Part shown: positions 38,248 to 53,850 of the stretch, in pieces
Layout: each line of letters starts with the position of its first letter
Position numbering within the stretch: the first letter of the stretch is position 1
Notes under the pieces: generated by a model
What the model was told of the DNA's origin: nothing
The model's database searches: none
The model's input: only the letters and a program-made list of their open reading frames with translations
Source of the DNA: Octopus sinensis
Lineage: Eukaryota
Length of the DNA: 64,000 nucleotides
NCBI RefSeq assembly: GCF_006345805.1
Contig: NW_021833893.1
Coordinates: 336,001-400,000 of the forward strand
Reading direction: 5' to 3'
Program-made: the position numbers and the translations under genes

Positions 38248-39425
38248 TATATATATATATATATATATATATACTTTATTTTAAGCAGCAGAAAATTCAA
38301 CAAAATCTGTTGAGTTTCTCGTTGCCGTTCATCAGACAGTTTTTGCTAGAATGGAACCGATATATCAATTCAATCTAGACTCTTACAAACGCTACACCTT
38401 TAAAAAGAAATGGACTTGTTTGATTGGCCCTTTAGAAAAAACGGTCAATCTTCGAGCGATAAACAAAAAGGTCAAAAATATATGTATATATATATAAAAA
38501 CTTATAAAAATTATAAAATCCGAGGAAAAAACCTTACATTGAATAAAATACATATTGACGTTAATGAAGAAAGTATAAATTAATGCATAGAAATTAAACC
38601 TGTTATAAATATTACACTGCAATACATATTTATATTAAAATGTACATATATATATCAACATACACAGAAGGATGCGTGCAAACGCCATACATATACAGAC
38701 GTATGAATATAAATTTAAATATATACATAAATGCATGCGTACATATATTCACGCAAACCATCTCGCACGCAAGTTAAAAACATCTATGTAGCGATTCTCA
38801 TATACTGAGTAAGGTGGGGGGACGAAAGAAAGGAATAGAGAGAAAAAAGGAACGAAGGAGGGGTGGGGAAAAAAACGAAATAAGAAAAAATTATGTATAC
38901 AAGCTGTGTAACGGCATTATTGACATATATGGAGACAAGTATACAGATACACAAGTTCGAATGGATACATATACATACAGTCGTGTATATGTGTGCTTAA
39001 GCACAAACATACGTTCACTTACACATACACAGATACGCATGCTTACAAATACATATCCATGGCTATACACATACTTATATAAAAATTCGAATTTTTGACA
39101 ACATCACTTTTTTAAAAAAAAAACATTGCTTTTTTAAAAAAAAATGGGTGCACTAATAAAAATATATACGAAAGACATATAAAATAAAATATAACACCCT
39201 ATTTTGATCATTTATAAATAATCAAGGTAATCCTATACAATACAATAACATGAAATAAATAAAGCCGAAGGTTTCTGCTAATGTATATGCAGAAACATAA
39301 GACTTTGCTATACGGATTAAAATCCGTATAGTTTGAAACAAAAACAAAAACAAAATCCATCGTAGCGCTCAGAGTTCAAGAGTCAAAATCAAAATTTCAA
39401 AAATCAAAAATACAAAATATATACT

Positions 39426-41561
39426 CTATCCATATGGTATATTTATATTCGACATTTTAAATTTAGCCGCGTGCCTACATAAGTTCATTAGCTCACTTCT
39501 TTGATTCAAAGAATTATTGTCTTTGAATAAGATGTACATTTTCTCTAATAGGCAAAGTTTACACTTGAAATTATTTTTGTATGCTCCATGCCTGTATGGT
39601 GCCGCCCTGTCCAGAATGCTCCATGTCACGTTGAAAGGTGGGGCTTCCTTTTCTTTTAGTTCCCAGACATATTTTGCTAGGCTGGTCCTCTTCCTATTCT
39701 CTGGGTATTTAAATGAATTTTTATGAGAATAAAATCTTGTTTTAAATGAATTTTCTGAAGCCCCTGTGTATGTCTTGTATTCCGATGAGCCTTCCACTTG
39801 CACCTTGGCTCTATAAACTACTCCTTTCACTAGACATTTCCCTTCTAACGGACAGGAGCTTTCGTTTTTGAAATTGCATTTCTTAATGGGCTCGGCACCA
39901 TGTCTAATCTCAATTAGCTTCCTATTATGTTGGCTAATGTAAGAGGCGAAATTTCTGCAACAAGAATAGCTAACCTTCAGGGTTCTTCTATTAAATATCC
40001 TATAGAATTTATGACCCTGCTTAAAATACTTAGAGACTAATCTCAAAAATTGCTTACCTATATTAGTCCTTACGGCCAAATTGAAAGCCGGGTTGAACTA
40101 CAAAACTTTCCTGGTCCTAGTTCTTCGTGCAGCATTATTATCAGCATTAAGCTGGTTGCACTGGATCTTCTCAGAGAATCCACTATTCTTTAATGCGCTA
40201 TCGTAATAAGGTGCAGCATTATGGAATGCTGCCTCGTCCGAAGAAATTGAAGATATTCTTCTACCTACATTGCTGACTAAGTTCCTAAGGATAACCGGTG
40301 GATGGTTCGAATCTTTGCTAATATACGATAGCTTTTCATTGGGCTTAACGAAAGGTTTAAATCTATCCGACCTTACATTAAAATTTACGTCTAAAAAATC
40401 TACACTATTCAGGTTAGCATCTATCGTAACCAGTAAGCCCATCATTTGAAAGAAAGCTATAAGGTCCTTCCTAAGTCTATCTGATTCATGGCCGTTTAGA
40501 TTATGCATGGCTATAAGGCCGTCATCCCTATATAAACCTGCATCTATAAATGGGAATTCTATTTTTAGATTATGGAGAATAAAGGCTCCTATGAGCATAC
40601 ATAACTCAGCCCCGTCGTATGCCCCCATCGGTACATCGAAAAGAGAATCCTTAGTCTTCTTAATCCAGGTGGAATCCTCGAAAAAAAGAAGCGATTTCCT
40701 CGCATGCATAATAATATCAATTTCCGAGCTATCGATGTTGACATACTGCTTGGCGAAGTCCAATGCCCTTAGGAGCAACGTCCTAGATATTGACGGGTAA
40801 AAGTCAATAATGTCGAATTGCGTGAAACTACAATTATTCTTATAGCTAATACCTTTAAACCACTCTATGACTGACTTACTATTCTTCCAAATTCTCAAGT
40901 CTACTTCACTATCTAACTTAACTAAAATACGGTCTAAAATATTTTTGCTAATAATTCCTATCTCAGTTTTAGCCGGATTTATCAATCTACATTTGGGGTT
41001 TCTACTAAAATTGGCTTTATGGTCTTTCAGAGTAATAAAAGCTGGTCTTGGTGAAAGATATTCAATCCTATCGCTAATCTTAAGATCATTAGCTATTCCT
41101 CTTGCTTCTAAGTTCACCTCTTTGTATATATTCGTGTTGTCTTTTTTGTATGTGTCTGTGACACTATTCGAAATCAGGCGCTTATAAACGTCCTTATCAA
41201 GTGCATATAAGTTCCTTGTCTTATCAGAATTAACGAAGATCTTATTCGAGTCGTTAATCTCCTTAATTTTTTCTCTCATACTTCTCTGTAATTGGTTGGT
41301 ATATTTGCGGAATTTAATTTTCCTAATAAGCTCGAAAAGGTCTTTCTCGAAGGCTTCTAATTCCAGAATGGGTGGCGGGTTTCTGAGAGATTTAAATCCA
41401 TATTTGTTTCCTTCTATTTTCTGTTTATTATCAAAGAAGAAGGCTTTCCATCTCAATCTTCGAATAAACTCTTCCGTTTTCTCTATAAGACCTTTGAGAT
41501 ATTGTTTCCGTGCAGGGATAGGTATATTTTTCTGAGAAAAATCCAACGGGTAAAGTTCCAT
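39426..41561 (-). pseudogene. PLE RT-GIY-YIG polyprotein (~711 codons) with one in-frame TAG
   Basis: DKTRN, FDIIDFYPSI, VPMGAYDGAE, YRDD, FLDV; KVL*FNPAF (conserved W, TGG to TAG at 40098-40100) continues in frame to CPLEGKC, GVVY, YTG, CKLCLLE, CRH. Confidence 0.93.
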
Positions 41562-41732
41562 CTTTTTCAGCTGTTTGTTCTTCCTACTTGTGCAGAGTCG
41601 CTCAAACTTTTATAAGGAGCGGGTTACACCGGAGTAAACACATAAATGTGAAAGAAGGTGGAAAAAAGAGTACTCAAATACCAGTGGTAGAGTAATATGC
41701 TTTATTTTAAGCAGCAGAAAATTCAACAAAAT

Positions 41733-41770
41733 CTGTTACTCTGAGTTTCTCGTTGCCGTTCATCAGACAG
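41733..41770 (-). ncRNA. Minimal HHR in the 5' pLTR
   Basis: Minus strand: CTGT-CTGATGA-ACG-GCAA-CGA-GAAA-CTCAGAG-TA-ACAG; the copy at 38307-38339 has a 5 nt deletion in stem III. Confidence 0.75.
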
Positions 41771-42067
41771 TTTTTGCTAGAATGGAACCGATATATCAAT
41801 TCAATCTAGACTATTACAAACGCTACATCTTTAAAAAGAAATGGACTTGTTTGATTGGCCCTTTAGAAAAAGCGGTCAATCTTCGAGCGATAAACAAAAA
41901 GGTCAAAAATATATGTATATATATATAAAAACTTATAAAAATTATAAAATCCGAGGAAAAAAACTTACATTGAATAAAATACATATTGACGTTAATGAAG
42001 AAGGTATAAATTAATGCATAGAAATTAAACCTGTTATAAATATTACACTGCAATACATATTTATATT

Positions 42068-42103
<36 letters not shown>

Positions 42104-42476: not shown

Positions 42477-45660
<3,184 letters not shown>

Positions 45661-46619
45661 TTTGATGACATCGATTTTCTTTATGTACATCTCAAGCAAA
45701 CCAGTTATTCTATAAACCTTCAGTCTATCGAAATACAGAACAAAAATTCTTAAGTATCCAATGGAAGAATTTTTTCCATTTAGGTATATGACTTCTTACG
45801 GTAAAACATTTGAATATTTCTTCAGCATGTAGAGTATTGAAAGTAGGACTGTTAATGCAAAGCTATTGACATGCATGACATTTTTCAAAATTCTGTCTTT
45901 CTTGTGATCGACTGAGCAGCATAAAAGAATCTTTTGCATATATCTGTAAACTAATCAGCAGATACAAAGAATTTAATGTGTCTATACAGTTCACGGTGAG
46001 CGAAAATCGCTCAGAGGACGCAATTAAGTCGATCAAATCGGGTATAAATGAAGGATCTGAACGTTTAGAAATAGTCTTATTTTGATTCAGTGAGTGGGCA
46101 GAGCTATTGTGATGCGGAGGAGAAAAAATAGCTATTTGGAAAACATATGATATTGAATGAATAGAGTTGATTTATTGCTTCGGAGTTTTAAATCAAATCA
46201 ATCGAATTTCTTATTACGATCCACACAGAATCTTCAGATGGCAACTCTATTTCCTTGTGTGTTCGGGACGAATAATTCTGTTCCCGTCCTTTTGCATTGC
46301 AAAAGTATAGCTGCTACATTAAAAAAGTTCTATACCATGGAATTAAGATTAAGAAGTAACGATTTTAGAGTAAGAATCATTTCTCTTTTATTTCAAAATA
46401 CACACACTCGCACAAACATGCATGCATACACACACACGCGCACTCACACACACATATATACAACGGGATCATTTCAGTTTATGCCAACCAAATCCATTCA
46501 CAAAACTTTGGTCGGTTTGAAGCTATAGTAAAAACGTTCTCAAGGTGTCGCGCAGCGGAACTGATCCCGGGACACATGTATATGTATATACATACATATA
46601 CAACATACACACACACACT

Positions 46620-46657
<38 letters not shown>

Positions 46658-46680
46658 CATATATATATATATACACACAC

Positions 46681-47552
46681 AAATATTTTATGATTATAAA
46701 AATAATTAGGGTTCAGCTAATTGTTTCACCACATACAGAATTTAGAAATAGGAGTTAAAATTCCTTTTATACTACTATAAGAATCTCCATGACGGTAACT
46801 TACTTTTTAACGAAGGCAAAGTGAAAAACAATGAATCAACAATTATAATTATGTTTATAATTATAAAATATTTGTATATTATTACCTGTAAAGGTTATTT
46901 TAACGTACCGATCTACTTGGTGAAATTATTAATTAATTGATTAATTAATTAATTAATTTAATTAATAAATTTTACCCTTTTATTATTAATTCAAAATTAT
47001 AATTTACTCCATAATAGAATACTGCAGTTTTCTGTGGTACTGCTCGTAGCATACACGTGGGTATAGGGGTTATATAGTGTATTCACATTCGGCTCTGTAA
47101 ATTTTGGAAGTGTTGGTTGGATATCTATTACATGATGTCGCTCGATCGTGTGCATATTTAACTCTAGCACTTTCAAATTTTATAATTAAAAATTCTATAC
47201 CGAAGAGAGAAGTAAGTGAAATTTAAATCACTTTAATCTCGAAACGCGTATATAGTTAATCCTGGTCGTGTTGATTCATTGTTTTTTCTCTTTGCCTCCG
47301 TAAAAAAGTATGTTACCGTCATGGAGATTCTTATAGTAGTAGAAAAGGAAATTTTGACTCTTATTTCTGAATTGGTATGTGGTGAAGCAATTAGCTGAAC
47401 CCTAATTATAATTGTTCATAATTATAAAATATTTGTATAATTTTACCTATAAAGGTTATTTTAACGTACCGATCTACTTGGTGAAATTATTAATTAATTG
47501 ATTAATTAATTAATCAACTTAATTAATAAAAATTGTATCCATTTATTATATA
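46681..47552 (+). mobile_element. ORF-less HHR element with terminal redundancy (561 bp period) and 5' inversion
   Basis: Direct repeat 46842-46985 / 47404-47550; inverted repeat 46681-46841 / 47269-47434; HHR inside. Confidence 0.78.
47195..47255 (+). ncRNA. Type I hammerhead ribozyme
   Basis: CTATA-CCGAAGA-GAGA-(AAGTGA/TCACTT hairpin)-TCTC-GAAA-CGCG-TA-TATAG. Confidence 0.85.
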
Positions 47553-47580
47553 CATACATACATACATACATACATACACA

Positions 47581-47694
<114 letters not shown>

Positions 47695-47696
47695 TT

Positions 47697-48130
47697 GTTT
47701 TGCAAGATTTTTGATGTGAAATCGTGTGTTGAAACAGATAATGTATTTAGGAATGGTCATTTTGCCAGTTTAGCCAATAAATTACACAAAAAAAACAAAT
47801 TACACGAACGTACATAAACAGGAGATACAAATATTACACTAACTAAACATAGACGCACATAGAGATATACGCATGCGCAAATGAAGACACATACAATAGA
47901 AATACAAAATGGCTGACGGTTAGTAAGGAGAGACACACAAATAAGAAAGAAGAAAGCAATGGACCACTGATGCGCTCACAGGAGTGTGACGAAAGAACTC
48001 TGGCTGAAATAAGATTAAGATTAATGTAAAAAATAAATAACGCTGAAGCAAAGTAACAGCAAATATATAGTGCGTGTGTTTTTATCGGCTAAACTGGCAA
48101 AATGACCATTCCGAAATACAACAATATATA
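47697..48130 (+). mobile_element. pLTR of the 57910-58910 PLE family with a 5' inverted segment and a degenerate HHR (47964-48003)
   Basis: 47800-48130 aligns with 58560-58910; 47747-47790 is an inverted copy of 48075-48120. Confidence 0.75.
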
Positions 48131-48149
48131 TACATATTAGATCGGTAGC

Positions 48150-48315
48150 CACTACACACATTTTCTTCTCTCCTTGTTTCTTTCTGTGTTCTTCTGTGGA
48201 AGAGCGTAGGCTCGAAAGGTAAAATACTTTTTCTATTCCCGAGCGTTATGCTAATACATCTGTTTGTTTTGTACACCACCTGTCTTCGTCTTTTGTTTTT
48301 TTCATGAATTCTCCC

Positions 48316-48366: not shown

Positions 48367-49276
48367 CGCGTTTAATATTTAATTTCAAGTATATGTGTTT
48401 ATGTGTCTGTGTGCGTTAAAGATATAAATTAGATGCAATTAACAACAACTATTTGAAGTTATATTTTGATTTAAAAAAACCTCTTACTACAGTTCGCATA
48501 CATTTAACATGCAGTTCGCCTGCATTTAACGGTGAAGAGGAGAAGAGAAGAATAGGGAAGGGTGGGAGAGAAAACCAGAAAGGATGAAGAACAAGAGAGG
48601 GAGAGAGATAGACAGAGAGGAGATAGTAGAGATATAAGAGTGCGCATCGTAATAATTAAGATAAAACTTACTTGGAAAAAGATGCGTGGCGTTCCCTTCG
48701 CTATTCTACTCCTCTGCTCTTTACCGTTCCTTCTCCCCTCTTCCAACTTGACTCTCGTCGCTGCCAATTTCCTTTCTAATGTCTCTTTTCATAAGCTCGT
48801 CTTCCTAGCGTTCATAATAATTTTTCAATCGTCTTGGCTTAACAGGCCTCGCCGTTTGTTTTTACTGTCTTGTTCTCACTGTCCTGTTTTGTTACAACTT
48901 TTACCCTCCGCAAAAAATCCCAAATTTTATTTAATTTGCTTTGCAGGAAGTACTGTTTCAACGAAGTCGCGTATTGTCCTTGCTTTCATACGCGGAGTGG
49001 ATGAAACAGGGACAACTGATGAAGGGGAATATTCCTTATGTTGTATGTCTCATTTCTCTGTTTGTCTTTTCGTTGTTAGAAAAAAGTTTTTGTTTTTATG
49101 TTATCATTCCTCATTGTCTTCAAGGTTTTTTTGATGTTCTGTACCTATATATGCATGTATATATACATATATATGTAGGTATGTACATATATGTATGCAT
49201 ATATGCATATATTTATATATAATTTATATTATATATATATATAAAGTGCGCGTGTGTGTATGAGTGTGTGTATATA

Positions 49277-50112
49277 CGTGGTCTGATCAATAAGTATCCG
49301 GACAGTTGCCATTGTAACGAAGCTGAAGCACGTAGAGTAAAGCCTCTTGACACTGATTGACATTGAACTCTTTTGTGCATGCGTACTAAGTTTAACATTC
49401 TAGCTCACTTCCTCTGTTCACAGTAGTGCTTGGAAGAAATCTGTGTAGCGTGTGATCGTAGCATTGGCCATGATAGAAAAAGTTGAGCAGAGAAAATGCA
49501 TCAAATTTTACCAAAAGCTTTGTGATACCTGCTTAGAGGCCTACGCAAAGTTTTCAAAATGTTTTCGTCTATCTCAACACAATGAAGGAGATATTGTGCT
49601 ACTGAAAGCCGAGTATGTTTTTGGTAAGCTGAAAGCGGTTTTAGCGTCTCATATCCAAATCTTCAGTGACAACGGACTGAACTGAACCGTAACTGATCCG
49701 CACATCCTTTGATAACTCATGGATGGTAATTCGACGATTTCCCCTTACAGCTGCACGCACATCGATGTTTTTCTCAGTTCTGCTGGTTGTGAGTCTCCTA
49801 GAAGGTTCGTGCAATATCGACATTCATTCAGCCATTTTGGAGGCGTCTGAACCACTTGTACACTTGTGTGCAGCTCATACACTCCTCCCCATACACTTTC
49901 TGCAACTTTGCGTAGGCGTCTGAGCAGGTATCGCCACAACTTTCTCTGTCATGGTCAACGCGAAGATCATAGGCTACACACTTTCCTTCCAAGCACTGCT
50001 GTAAATAGCAGAAGTGAGCTAGTTCAAGGTCAATATTTGCCAAGTGGCTCTACTCTGCGTGCTTTAGCTCCGTTACTATGGCAATAGTCGGATACTTATT
50101 GATCAAACCTCG
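49277..50112. mobile_element. Mariner derivative built from two inward-facing 5' ends
   Basis: TA-flanked TIRs CGTGGTCTGATCAATAAGTATCCG; transposase N-terminus on both strands (EQRKCIKF...EAYAK; DAYAKLQKVYGEECMSCTQVYKWFRR). Confidence 0.82.
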
Positions 50113-50127
50113 TATGTATGTGTATAA

Positions 50128-50339: not shown

Positions 50340-51697
50340 GAAGCAAACCCACAAAATTATGGACCAATAACATGTCTTCCTACAATTTAAGGCGCACCTA
50401 TAAAAATTACAGACGAATAATTTGTCTCCCAACAATTTACAAAGCCTTTACTGCAATAATATCGCAGAGAATGAGCAAGCATCTGGAAAAAAACAACCTG
50501 TTTCCAGAAGAGCAGAAGGGATGATGCAAAGGCTCATGCGGCTGTAAAGATTAACTAATGATCAATAAAGCCATAACTGAAGACAGCCGCAGAAAGAAGA
50601 AGAGTCTAATTATAGCCTGGGTCGATTACCGAAAGTATTCCTCACACATGGATCCTAGAAACACTAGCCATGAACAACATAGCACCAATAATCATAAAAT
50701 ATATTACACATTCCATGAATATTTGAAGAAACTGAAACCACTGCTACAAAACAAGCAAAATGCATGAAGCAGACCGCAAAAAAGAACGGGCAGAAACAAA
50801 TTGTGGAGTGGTGGAACCAGAAGCCTCTGCATGGACAGTATATACTTCACAGTCGCAACGCTGGTGTAGATCAAGCAACGACCCATCAGTGGCTTAGAGG
50901 TTCAGGACTGAAAGCACAGACTGAAGTTTTCCTATTGGCGGCACAAGATCAAAATTTACTCAAAAAACTACCAGGCTAACGTTCTTGAAAATGATTCTGA
51001 CCATAAATGCAGAATCTGCGATGTATTTGACGAAACGATAGACCATCTCTTTTCGGGATGTCCTGTGCTGACACCAAACGAATACAAAAATTGCCTCGAT
51101 AGAGTAGGACAGCATTTACACTGCAAAATATGTAAACACTACAAAATCAACACTCCTGCTTACTAGTACGATCATCATCTTGAGCCAGTCGTTGAAGGTA
51201 AAAATGTCACTATCCTCTGGAATTTTCTAGTGAACACCGACAGAACGATCCTAGTAACTCGGCCAGACATAATTATTAAAGATAGGGAAGAAAATACTTG
51301 TAGACGAACAGATGCAAGTGTTCCCAATGATAAAAACATATCTGTCAAGGAATTTGACAAACTAAGTAAATAAAAGAATCTGGAAATTGAAATACAAAAG
51401 ATGTGGCATCATAAAGCGAGAACTAATTTTGTTGTTGTGGATGCCCTAGGTATGATGAAAAGGAATGTCTGAAACATCTAGATAAGATTCCAGGAGAACC
51501 ATGTCTCAAAGAAATCCAAAAAATTGTACTGACAAGTACTGCCCGCTTCTTTCGAAAAACACTATCCATTTAAACGTCTGTGTTGTATTACATGAAGATA
51601 TTTGGCTACTCCCCCCCCCAAGCTGTAACATCAATTATCCTTCACTCGCCCAAGGACACTGAGTGTATCTCGGCAAGTGACTGTGACAAATATGCAG
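50340..51697 (+). mobile_element. Internally deleted R4/Dong-like LINE, second subfamily, in (TAA)n
   Basis: NYRRIICLPTIYK, KPLHGQY, LKAQTEVFLLAAQDQ, RPDIII; (TAA)n flanks. Confidence 0.82.
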
Positions 51698-51708
51698 ATT
51701 ATATGTAA

Positions 51709-51758
<50 letters not shown>

Positions 51759-51763
51759 TGATG

Positions 51764-51796
<33 letters not shown>

Positions 51797-51819
51797 TAGT
51801 AATAATAATAATAATAATG

Positions 51820-51850
<31 letters not shown>

Positions 51851-51867
51851 TAATAATAATAATAATG

Positions 51868-51926
<59 letters not shown>

Positions 51927-51989
51927 TAAAATAATAATAATAATAATGGTAATAATAACAATGATAATGTACATTGTTTTGTCTTAGTA

Positions 51990-52456
51990 TAATAGATGGG
52001 CTACAACAAATATTCTACTCAATGCTACAGATCTGCTTGTCAGTTGCTTGACCATAACCAGTTGAGCATGCCCCTTAGTGGCTGACGAATTGTGCATCTC
52101 TGATCAAGTGGAGAAGTAGTGGGGGAGCATCATAGCCATGTGTTGAGAGGCATACTTTGGGGTTCGGATAATTCACCTGTAGAAACATGGGTGTTTTGTT
52201 CATCATCCTTAAACAACCCTTATTCAGGGACCTTTTGAGCGGGATGGTCTACTTGACCTGAAGAAAATTTTAACTGGGCCCCACCTGCAAGGTCAAGCAC
52301 TGTTTATCTTGATATGGGATCGCTATGTCGCGCACATATGGTTGTGATGCACGTGCCTGGTGTACCCTTTACTAGACGGGTAGTCATGATGTGTATGCTG
52401 GGCTTCGTATATTTTACTCCAATGTCACTTTGATGGCATGCACTGCTCTCTCATTC
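51990..52456 (+). repeat. Interspersed repeat ending in (AAT)n, probably a LINE 3' UTR or SINE
   Basis: GC-richer non-coding block bounded by (TAA)n tracts; family not identified. Confidence 0.4.
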
Positions 52457-52512
<56 letters not shown>

Positions 52513-52546
52513 TAACAATAACAATAATAATAATAATAACAACAAC

Positions 52547-52591
<45 letters not shown>

Positions 52592-52766
52592 TATGATAAT
52601 AATAATAATAATTTATATACACACATCATCACACACTTGGACAGAAACGAAAATATGGGTACAAATAATCTAAACGTAACATAACTAACTTAAATTGACG
52701 AAATTTATACAAATGCACACACACACACACACAGACACACATCTGTATGTATTCTTACCACCTAAG

Positions 52767-53850
52767 TAGAAATCATACCACCTAACAAATATAAAGAAGA
52801 AGAAGAAGAAGAAGAAGAAGAAGAAGAAGAAGAAGAAGAAGAAGAAGAAGAAGAAGAAGAAGAAGAAGAAGAAGAAGAAGATGAAGAAACAACAAAAGCT
52901 ATAAAACAAATGAAATCCAAACTAATACTAGAACAGCAACGAACCATGATAAAACGATGGCAAGAAAAACCCCTTCACGGTAAATACTGGACTAAACTAA
53001 ATGCAAAAGAAATAGACAAAGAAAAATTCCAGCAATGGTTGAGAAGCTCAGGATTCAAAGAGACAGAGGGATTTTTAATTGCAGAGACAGAGGGATTTTT
53101 AATTGCAGCACAAGACCAAAGCCTCCCCACCAGAAATTACCAAAAACATGTAATGAAAAGAAATATTACAAGTAACTGCAGAATATGTGGAGATGGACAA
53201 GAAACAATAAATCATATTATCTCTGGCTGCCCAGTCCTGGCTAAGAAGGAATATATTCACAGACATGACAGAGTTGGAACCTACATACACTGGAAGCTAT
53301 GCCAACATTATGGAATAACAACAGAAAAAAGATGGTATAGGCACACACCAGAAAAGGTCACAGAAAACGAGAAAGCAACCATACTCTGGGATATGCCGAT
53401 ACACACAGATAGAGAAATTAAGGCCAACAGACCAGATATAGTTGTCAGAGATCATGAAGAAAAAAAATGCTTTCTAATTGATGTATCAATACCGGCAGAT
53501 GACAACGTGCCTCTAAAAGAAATGGAGAAACTCTAAAAATACAAAGACCTGGAAATGGAGGTAACCAGGATGTGGAATCTAAAAACAGAAACAATTCGTA
53601 TCAGAGTAGGTGCATTAGGCATGATAAAAAAATATTCAGACAAATACATAACAAAAACACCAAGACTTACAAACACATATAACATACAGAAAATTGCACT
53701 ACTAGGCACTGCACACATCCTACGCAGAACACTTTCCATACAATAACCATCAGAGCATCACAACAAATCACAGCACATACCCAAGGCACACAGAGCTGCG
53801 CTCGGTAGTGAAGTGAAAGCACGCTATAAAAAATAAAACTACTGAATGAT
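52767..53850 (+). mobile_element. 5'-truncated R4/Dong-like LINE (same family as 33411-35115)
   Basis: Highly similar to 34133-35115; expanded (GAA)n; duplicated ETEGFLIA. Confidence 0.9.

What the first reader, a model, noticed from the sequence alone, without database searches (positions are those of the whole stretch)
46681..47552. Retrozyme-like element: 561 nt ORF-less monomer with one intact HHR, terminal redundancy and 5' inversion
Seen: order is inverted B, then C-D-HHR-B-C. C (~145 bp) repeats at a 561 bp period with no ORF between the copies, and the HHR at 47195-47255 has all three stems. Established: non-LTR retrozymes are HHR-containing monomers that form circular RNAs and integrate as partial tandems, probably using PLE enzymes. 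Inference: this is a ~1.25-mer cDNA copy of a circular or multimeric ~560 nt ribozyme RNA with a PLE-style inversion, and is the best candidate here for an undescribed non-autonomous retroelement.
Basis: partly seen in the sequence, partly recalled or inferred. Interest (0 to 1): 0.75.

Follow-up and report, generated by a model that had tools for sequence, protein, structure and literature searches.

The report
Two-armed hammerhead retrozyme-type insertion
This is one aged copy of a protein-less repeat that carries a predicted self-cutting hammerhead RNA and lands in TA repeats, often as two back-to-back arms ending at two fixed sites; a neighbouring protein-coding Penelope-type transposon leaves the same footprint, so an enzyme of that type likely copied it.

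Summary
The repeats are real, and the element belongs to a dispersed, ORF-less family in G000 (1,606-2,144 first-look candidates; 156 distinct insertions examined). The 543-564 nt unit closes on itself (B-C-D-HHR-B). The family hammerhead is well supported: three stem I pairs change on both sides (0/500 shuffles), and a 66-70% identical sister family keeps the fold. The window's own hammerhead is not intact: it has U4C. Arms end at two fixed sites beside (TA)n and are 5'-truncated; 67 insertions are head-to-head, and 46 of 49 classifiable ones pair site A with site B. A protein-coding element with Hydra-clade motifs, 5 kb away, follows the same rule in 12 of 12 two-armed insertions. No ORF-bearing parent was found. 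Four arms cross two cleavage sites, fitting a circle or an uncut multimer; no full dimer or long array was seen, and circular RNA and cleavage are untested. Verdict: a new family of a known kind (retrozyme-type non-autonomous Penelope-like element). The scan already reported this kind, with the two-site rule, on other DNA of this genome.

The parts
46679..46841 (-). Left arm: 5'-truncated inverted copy, unit positions 429 to 35 (most of B plus the start of C); its 3' end is at site A, facing the left microsatellite
   Evidence: blastn 89% to 47269-47434; arm map
46841..47549 (+). Right arm: 709 nt, 1.26 laps of the 563-nt unit (C-D-HHR-B-C); its 3' end is at site B
   Evidence: lap overlap 135 of 144 aligned bases identical
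46841..46986 (+). Segment C, first copy; holds the AT-rich hairpin 46903-46976 between end sites A and B
   Evidence: predicted fold
46987..47193 (+). Segment D, non-coding; long G-U-rich predicted hairpin at about 47097-47183
   Evidence: circular fold z = -6.7; consensus fold of 28 copies
47194..47256 (+). Type I hammerhead motif; core 47200-47206 (U4C at 47201 in this copy), GAAA 47241-47244, predicted cut after 47250
47257..47403 (+). Segment B; its last ~40 nt are the part shared most widely with related families
47404..47549 (+). Segment C, second copy (terminal redundancy); site A corresponds to 47404-47445, site B to the end at 47549
46603..46678 (.). Left flank, (CA)n/(TA)n microsatellite (insertion target)
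47550..47694 (.). Right flank, (TACA)n/(CA)n/(TA)n microsatellite (insertion target); a target-site duplication cannot be told

Best explanation
The stretch is one decayed, two-armed insertion of a dispersed, protein-less repeat family with a conserved hammerhead fold, likely copied into a TA microsatellite by a borrowed Penelope-type reverse transcriptase/endonuclease. Shown: closed unit, no ORF, hammerhead covariation, two fixed 3' ends next to microsatellite, variable 5' ends, head-to-head arms that pair site A with site B. Inferred: the enzyme nicks both DNA strands and primes cDNA at two internal sites of the RNA, 110-140 nt apart and flanking the C hairpin, one site per strand; each cDNA runs backwards, sometimes for more than one lap, and the two are joined at their far ends. 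The template has tandem continuity: I favour a hammerhead-cut and religated circle (about 0.55) over an uncut multimeric transcript (about 0.4). The helper is most likely a Hydra-clade element (about 0.5), not identified. This copy's ribozyme is predicted to be weak (U4C).
For: Family: 1606, 2011 and 2144 first-look candidates, 40 scored each; 62 exact hits of a 23-nt HHR word, 0 for the reversed control. Census of 156 distinct insertions, 232 arms: 111 end at site A, 87 at site B, 34 elsewhere; 67 head-to-head against 2 with a tail-to-tail junction; 46 of 49 classifiable head-to-head insertions are A+B, 18 more have one unclassified end. First set 29 of 31, p = 2e-7; 40 unseen loci 17 of 18, p = 7e-5. 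Microsatellite within 30 nt of the 3' end in 52 of 59 single arms and 79 of 92 outer ends, against 29 of 59 at 5' ends and 800 of 2340 background windows. At 34 non-CpG diagnostic columns, laps of one arm agree 87 of 99, opposite arms 226 of 253, different insertions 59%. Four arms cross two cleavage sites (L003, L143, L147, L165). Stem I: 3 of 6 pairs change on both sides, 57 cells, 0 of 500 shuffles, above all slid controls. Sister family, 64-72% identical, colinear, stem I UCAUG/CAUGA. Sense strand folds better than antisense in 32 of 32 long arms. Protein-coding neighbour family with RWK and DKT motifs: 12 of 12 two-armed insertions pair its two end sites, in (TA)n. PMC11167929 (main text read): a PLE protein nicks and extends both strands and starts RT at two internal RNA sites. 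PMC8557442 (passages and section 11): partial tandems, inverted 5' copies, Hydra elements insert into (TA)n.
Against: No helper found: the unit shares no junction or real homology with the window's Hydra-like family or with 30 Neptune-like loci. That Hydra-like family is younger (95-98% identical) than this family (80-92% to the window unit). No arm of two full units and no array in 156 insertions; none of 62 exact HHR hits lies in tandem at unit spacing. The A-B distance (110-140 nt) is longer than the 30-40 bp PLE tail. The covariation counts sequences, not events (about three or four subfamily changes); the count of pairs with double changes did not beat the shuffle (476 of 500); stems II and III show none. 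5' ends give no clean cleavage footprint: 6 of 33 arms stop within 6 nt of the site, but several keep the GUH triplet. In PMC11167929 HHR cleavage was not needed for insertion.
Confidence: 0.8

Rival explanations
1. The copies are only the 5'-truncated terminal repeats (pLTRs) of an autonomous Penelope-like element whose full-length copies were not sampled.
For: Most PLE insertions are 5'-truncated; only about a tenth of the candidates were examined; bioRxiv 10.64898/2026.07.22.740005 found 24 of 57 Xenopus retrozyme families homologous to TEs, nearly all PLE termini.
Against: 22 of 232 arms are longer than one unit plus 20 nt and read on through B-C-D, so the unit closes without an ORF. 91 5' flanks of single arms share no common extension next to the element (four duplicate loci and one 110-nt repeat). 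PLE protein hits in family loci are unrelated neighbours. The sister family is also colinear and ORF-less at about 30% divergence.
Confidence: 0.08
2. Same element and enzyme, but the template is a linear, uncut read-through transcript from a tandem master locus; the hammerhead is kept for another step and no circle exists. This is an alternative for one step of the best explanation.
For: In PMC11167929 unprocessed RNA was the dominant substrate and HHR mutants inserted normally; arms run through the cleavage site without a clean stop; minimal stem III suggests slow, dimer-dependent cutting; 8 of 9 Xenopus dimers did not cleave in the bioRxiv paper.
Against: No tandem master with two full units was found; no recurrent lap 1 versus lap 2 difference outside the AT-rich ends, as a circle predicts but a young dimer also allows; stem I compensation shows the fold mattered in the source lineages.
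Confidence: 0.35
3. The tandem and inverted pieces arose at the DNA level after insertion (local duplication, fold-back repair in an unstable microsatellite) or by assembly error.
For: The flanks are slippage-prone; the locus lies on a small contig; one copy was amplified inside a 1224-bp DNA unit (L068-L080).
Against: The repeated parts differ by 6-11%, so they are not assembly echoes; the A+B rule holds across chromosomes and replicates; arms nearly always face outwards.
Confidence: 0.03

Closest known systems
Metazoan non-LTR retrozymes (coral, Mytilus, axolotl: PMC7229834; vertebrate survey: bioRxiv 10.64898/2026.07.22.740005)
   Same: ORF-less, low-GC (29%), structured unit with one type I hammerhead; tandem continuity; coexists with PLEs; PLE mobilisation proposed.
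   Different: Longer than the 170-400 nt invertebrate units (within the 51-972 bp survey range); found as dispersed 0.1-1.7-mers, not dimers to long arrays; fixed 3' ends, (TA)n targeting and paired two-armed insertions are not described in the parts of these papers I read; circRNA and cleavage not shown here.
Endonuclease-bearing Penelope-like elements, Hydra clade (PMC8557442) and Poseidon PAc (PMC11167929)
   Same: Partial tandems, 5' truncation, inverted 5' copy, HHR, two internal end sites, AT-rich or (TA)n targets; the Hydra-like family in the window obeys the same a+b rule.
   Different: No RT-EN ORF; end sites 110-140 nt apart against 30-40 bp (PAc) and 71 nt (window Hydra-like family); larger HHR with long stem II and ACGCGU stem III; no sequence homology to a coding PLE found.
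Non-autonomous Chlamys elements such as MRC1 (PMC8557442, passage)
   Same: Non-coding PLE derivatives with pLTRs and head-to-tail multicopy insertions.
   Different: Those share 3' sequence with autonomous partners and mostly lack canonical HHRs; here a canonical HHR is present and the partner is unknown.

Membership tests
Non-LTR retrozyme | Type I hammerhead motif in the unit | tested here: met
   Core intact in 66 of 97 HHR-spanning arms (inflated: many loci were fetched with a core-containing word); stem I covariation. Window copy has U4C.
Non-LTR retrozyme | No protein coding, low GC, small unit | tested here: met
   Longest sense frame 53 codons; GC 0.29; periods 541-564, one deleted copy 496.
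Non-LTR retrozyme | Tandem arrays with at least two consecutive complete HHR units | tested here: inconclusive
   1 of 156 insertions has two whole, decayed HHRs in tandem (L165, 1.7 units); 3 more cross two cleavage sites; no array; about a tenth of candidates seen.
Non-LTR retrozyme | Self-cleavage | not testable with these tools
   Needs an in vitro assay.
Non-LTR retrozyme | Expressed as circular RNA | not testable with these tools
   Only assembled contigs were offered; they cannot show ends, strand or circles.
Penelope-like element (insertion signature) | Partial tandem, 5' truncation, inverted 5'-truncated copy | tested here: met
Penelope-like element (insertion signature) | Two alternative 3' ends (tail) | tested here: met
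   198 of 232 arm ends at sites A or B; spacing longer than the published 30-40 bp.
Penelope-like element (insertion signature) | Microsatellite insertion bias | tested here: met
Autonomous Penelope-like element | RT plus GIY-YIG ORF | tested here: not met
   No ORF in the unit; no ORF junction in family loci.
Non-autonomous derivative of a named PLE family | Sequence homology to the pLTR of a coding PLE | tested here: inconclusive
   None with the two coding families checked; other PLE families of G000 were not surveyed.

The most novel reading that the evidence does not exclude
Penelope-type enzymes insert by obligate twin priming: one complex nicks both strands of (TA)n and starts two cDNAs at two different fixed sites of a single circular, ribozyme-made RNA. 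The rule holds for the coding Hydra-clade element and for a long-lived, ORF-less circular RNA lineage that has diversified into subfamilies and sister families with compensated ribozymes, in effect a genome-encoded viroid-like parasite of Hydra elements.
Probability: 0.3. Interest if true: 0.72.

Novelty: new member of a known kind. Interest (0 to 1): 0.42.

Why it matters
How PLEs make tandem and inverted insertions, and which enzyme moves animal retrozymes, are named as open in PMC8557442, PMC7229834 and the 2026 bioRxiv survey. This family gives a countable footprint (46 of 49 A+B) that a coding Hydra-like family shares (12 of 12), so it names an RNA, two start sites, a target and a candidate enzyme clade for an in vitro test. 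The element itself is an aged member of a known kind, this copy is probably inert, and younger families with the same rule have already been noted in this genome by the scan.

Tried and rejected
Rfam scan of the window: no hammerhead match. A direct pattern search for two HHRs at unit spacing could not be run, so dimers were judged from hit lists and a junction query; a rare intact dimer is not excluded. Helper search: a loose HHR pattern gave 22 hits against 2 for the control; they held unrelated HHR families, chance hits and two sister-family copies, no partner (part's output was cut and L171-L181 were reprinted). Neptune-like family (3941 candidates, 30 loci read): no shared sequence beyond AT-rich matches, no canonical HHR within 800 nt of the query match in the loci displayed (output partly cut). 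RT hits beside L156 and L277/L279 are an interrupted ORF and a neighbour beyond 700 nt of microsatellite. Pfam, PDB sequences and NCBIfam did not name the neighbour ORFs, apart from one weak retron RT hit, E 0.0015; the Hydra label rests on motifs read against PMC8557442, with no tree. Expression: no RNA holder listed; contigs of four runs only guessed to be RNA hold pieces of the family including the HHR, with no B-to-C back-joint listed and C skipped as repeat; this is no evidence either way. One run of organism C laid nothing. Cleavage footprint at 5' ends: weak and not exact. RNAalifold on 28 copies recovered the D hairpin but only 4 of 72 pairs with a double change and not the HHR stem I. 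Sequence look-up in earlier findings found no look-alike. Literature: searches octopus+Penelope+hammerhead, cephalopod+retrozyme and a five-term search found no paper describing this family or the paired-end rule; subscription papers, Repbase/Dfam and the supplements of the cited papers were not seen and may list it.

Full report
Observation. The direct repeat (46841-46986 with 47404-47549, 91%) and the inverted repeat (46679-46841 with 47269-47434, 89%) are real and far beyond chance. With unit position 1 at 46841 and a 563-nt unit, the element is a left arm on the minus strand (429 to 35) joined head-to-head, with one shared base, to a right arm on the plus strand (1 to 563 to 146), between two TA/CA microsatellites. 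The unit has no ORF. The hammerhead layout is present and folds locally at z = -4.1, but the core is CCGAAGA. PMC3088659 (passages) says the U4C variant considerably decreases activity in vitro while keeping enough for viroid infectivity, and that palindromic stem III sequences allow dimeric folds. Rfam did not detect the motif.

Family. The window lies in G000, 2.7 Gb (earlier scan notes call it octopus; I did not verify this). DNA searches gave 1606, 2011 and 2144 first-look candidates, of which 40 were scored each time; these are not copy numbers. Exact patterns gave 62, 62 and 144 hits, with 0 for reversed controls. I held 210 family loci (30 each; 20; 40). After dropping 9 loci of one DNA-amplified insertion, duplicates, clusters at locus edges and pieces under 60 nt, 156 insertions with 232 arms remained. 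Arms over 200 nt are 80-92% identical to the window unit (5th-95th percentile), so the family is old. Contigs from genome-sized runs of organisms D and E (two studies) also hold the family at 94% likeness or more: 429 and 225 contigs laid; the organism A run may be the source sample.

Ribozyme. Among 97 arms spanning the HHR, 66 keep the whole core and 3 have U4C; this is inflated because many loci were fetched with a core-containing word. In the 30 loci fetched by similarity alone, 27 have U4. I aligned 95 of the 97 (dropped L055, deletion in stem I, and L121, 5' half missing). 93.4% of cells pair; three stem I pairs change on both sides (A-U/G-C, C-G/U-A, U-A/C-G), 57 cells, 0 of 500 shuffles and above every slid control; the number of such pairs did not beat the shuffle, and stems II and III show no double changes. 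These are a few subfamily events, one of them with GUC in place of GUA. A sister family (1511 candidates; 20 loci read) is colinear at 64-72% identity, with stem I UCAUG/CAUGA and the same GAAACGCGUA. The whole unit folds as a circle at z = -6.7 (window) and -4.0 (L003), 30 shuffles each; the sense strand folds better in 32 of 32 long arms, partly because it is G- and U-rich.

Insertion footprint. 3' ends fall at site A (unit 560-46, 111 arms) or site B (140-170, 87 arms); the windows are broad because the AT-rich ends blend into (TA)n. 5' ends are spread over the unit. Microsatellite follows the 3' end in 52 of 59 single arms and 79 of 92 outer ends of two-armed copies, against 34% background. 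Of 156 insertions, 67 are head-to-head and 2 contain a tail-to-tail junction. Of the 67, 46 are A+B, 2 A+A, 1 B+B and 18 have one end elsewhere. The window copy is an A+B case. Laps of one arm and opposite arms share subfamily variants (88% and 89% against 59%), so they come from one template or one source. In 12 of 43 simple A+B insertions the two 5' ends lie within 15 nt of each other (permutation mean 6.0, p = 0.003), a modest hint that both cDNAs can stop together; alignment across a palindrome centre may add to it.

Template. 22 arms exceed one unit by more than 20 nt, reading B-C-D-HHR-B(-C), so the unit is closed. Four cross two cleavage sites; L165 holds two whole, decayed HHRs. A transcript that starts at a cut cannot give these; a religated circle or an uncut multimer can. 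No full dimer or array was seen. In the sample unbiased for the HHR, 6 of 33 arms that reach the site stop within 6 nt of it, above the roughly 2-3 expected from neighbouring bins (my estimate), but several keep the GUH triplet, which looks like stalling at the fold or TA microhomology rather than a cut end.

Helper. [quoted passage not shown] These motifs match the Hydra clade, which inserts into (TA)n (PMC8557442 section 11); no tree was built. I read 20 of the 30 fetched loci of this family at about 10 kb, 14 of them chosen because an inverted arm was visible. All 12 with both outer ends in view pair its two end sites, 71 nt apart, each followed by (TA)n. The footprint is thus shared by a coding PLE. 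This family has no sequence link to the unit and is younger (95-98%), so it is a model for the helper, not the helper itself. A Neptune-like family showed no link.

Mechanism. Shown: closed ORF-less unit, conserved HHR fold, two end sites, (TA)n targets, paired arms. From the literature: a PLE protein nicks and extends both strands and starts RT at two internal RNA sites, and does not need HHR cleavage (PMC11167929, main text read). Inferred: twin priming, one site per strand, on an RNA with tandem continuity. Untested: cleavage, circularity, expression, identity of the enzyme.

Comparison. It works like a non-LTR retrozyme (PMC7229834: passages, sections 14 and 17 read) and inserts like a PLE. 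bioRxiv 10.64898/2026.07.22.740005 (parts 1-3 of 5 read, no supplements) already argues that animal retrozymes are non-autonomous PLE derivatives and defines active ones by two tandem HHR units, a test that is inconclusive here. I file it as a retrozyme-type non-autonomous PLE, not as a proven retrozyme. Searches found no paper on this family (listings only, apart from the papers named); repeat libraries were not available. Earlier scan notes report several other families of this kind in the same genome with the same two-site rule; they are unchecked AI notes and add no independent support.

Verdict. Observation partly confirmed; interpretation partly supported; new member of a known kind; interest 0.42.

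Noticed in passing
window 38269-42086 (minus strand): Near-complete coding Penelope-like element with Hydra-clade motifs (RWK, DKT), terminal repeats 96.7% alike with minimal HHRs, one internal stop; 2066 first-look candidates; its two-armed insertions pair two end sites 71 nt apart in 12 of 12 cases.
   Followed up: yes
L315 / L332 (G000:C2:18914530-18924420): Internally deleted, partly tandem copy of that Hydra-like element, joining the start of the ORF region to its 3' part: a possible example of how ORF-less closed units arise.
   Followed up: no
window 42850-45609 (plus strand): A second, decayed PLE-like ORF of another family, broken by stops and frameshifts and holding a (TAA)n run.
   Followed up: no
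window 47700-48315: A different abundant repeat (5462 first-look candidates) in the same microsatellite tract, with an internal inverted repeat (47742-47788 / 48075-48120) and a decayed hammerhead-like motif at 48186-48235.
   Followed up: partly
L172, L176, L269-L288: Sister family, 64-72% identical and colinear over the whole unit, ORF-less, with a differently paired hammerhead; 1511 first-look candidates.
   Followed up: partly
L068-L071, L073, L076-L080 (C30 and small contigs): One truncated two-armed insertion amplified with its flanks at DNA level; two copies 1224 bp apart in L069.
   Followed up: no
L171, L174, L180, L181, L183: Another HHR family (CUGAUGA core, palindromic stem III); L181 has a PLE-like ORF fragment upstream.
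   Followed up: no
L193-L222: Abundant Neptune-like family (3941 candidates) with a long microsatellite-rich 3' UTR and no canonical HHR within 800 nt of the query match in the loci displayed.
   Followed up: partly
window 49274-50115: Element with inverted ends (49274-49369 / 50021-50115; 49400-49485 / 49937-50022) and transposase-like fragments, probably a decayed DNA transposon (label from recall).
   Followed up: no
window 50380-53760: LINE fragments; zf-RVT hit at 52766-53536, E 1.6e-5, just under Pfam's cut-off.
   Followed up: no
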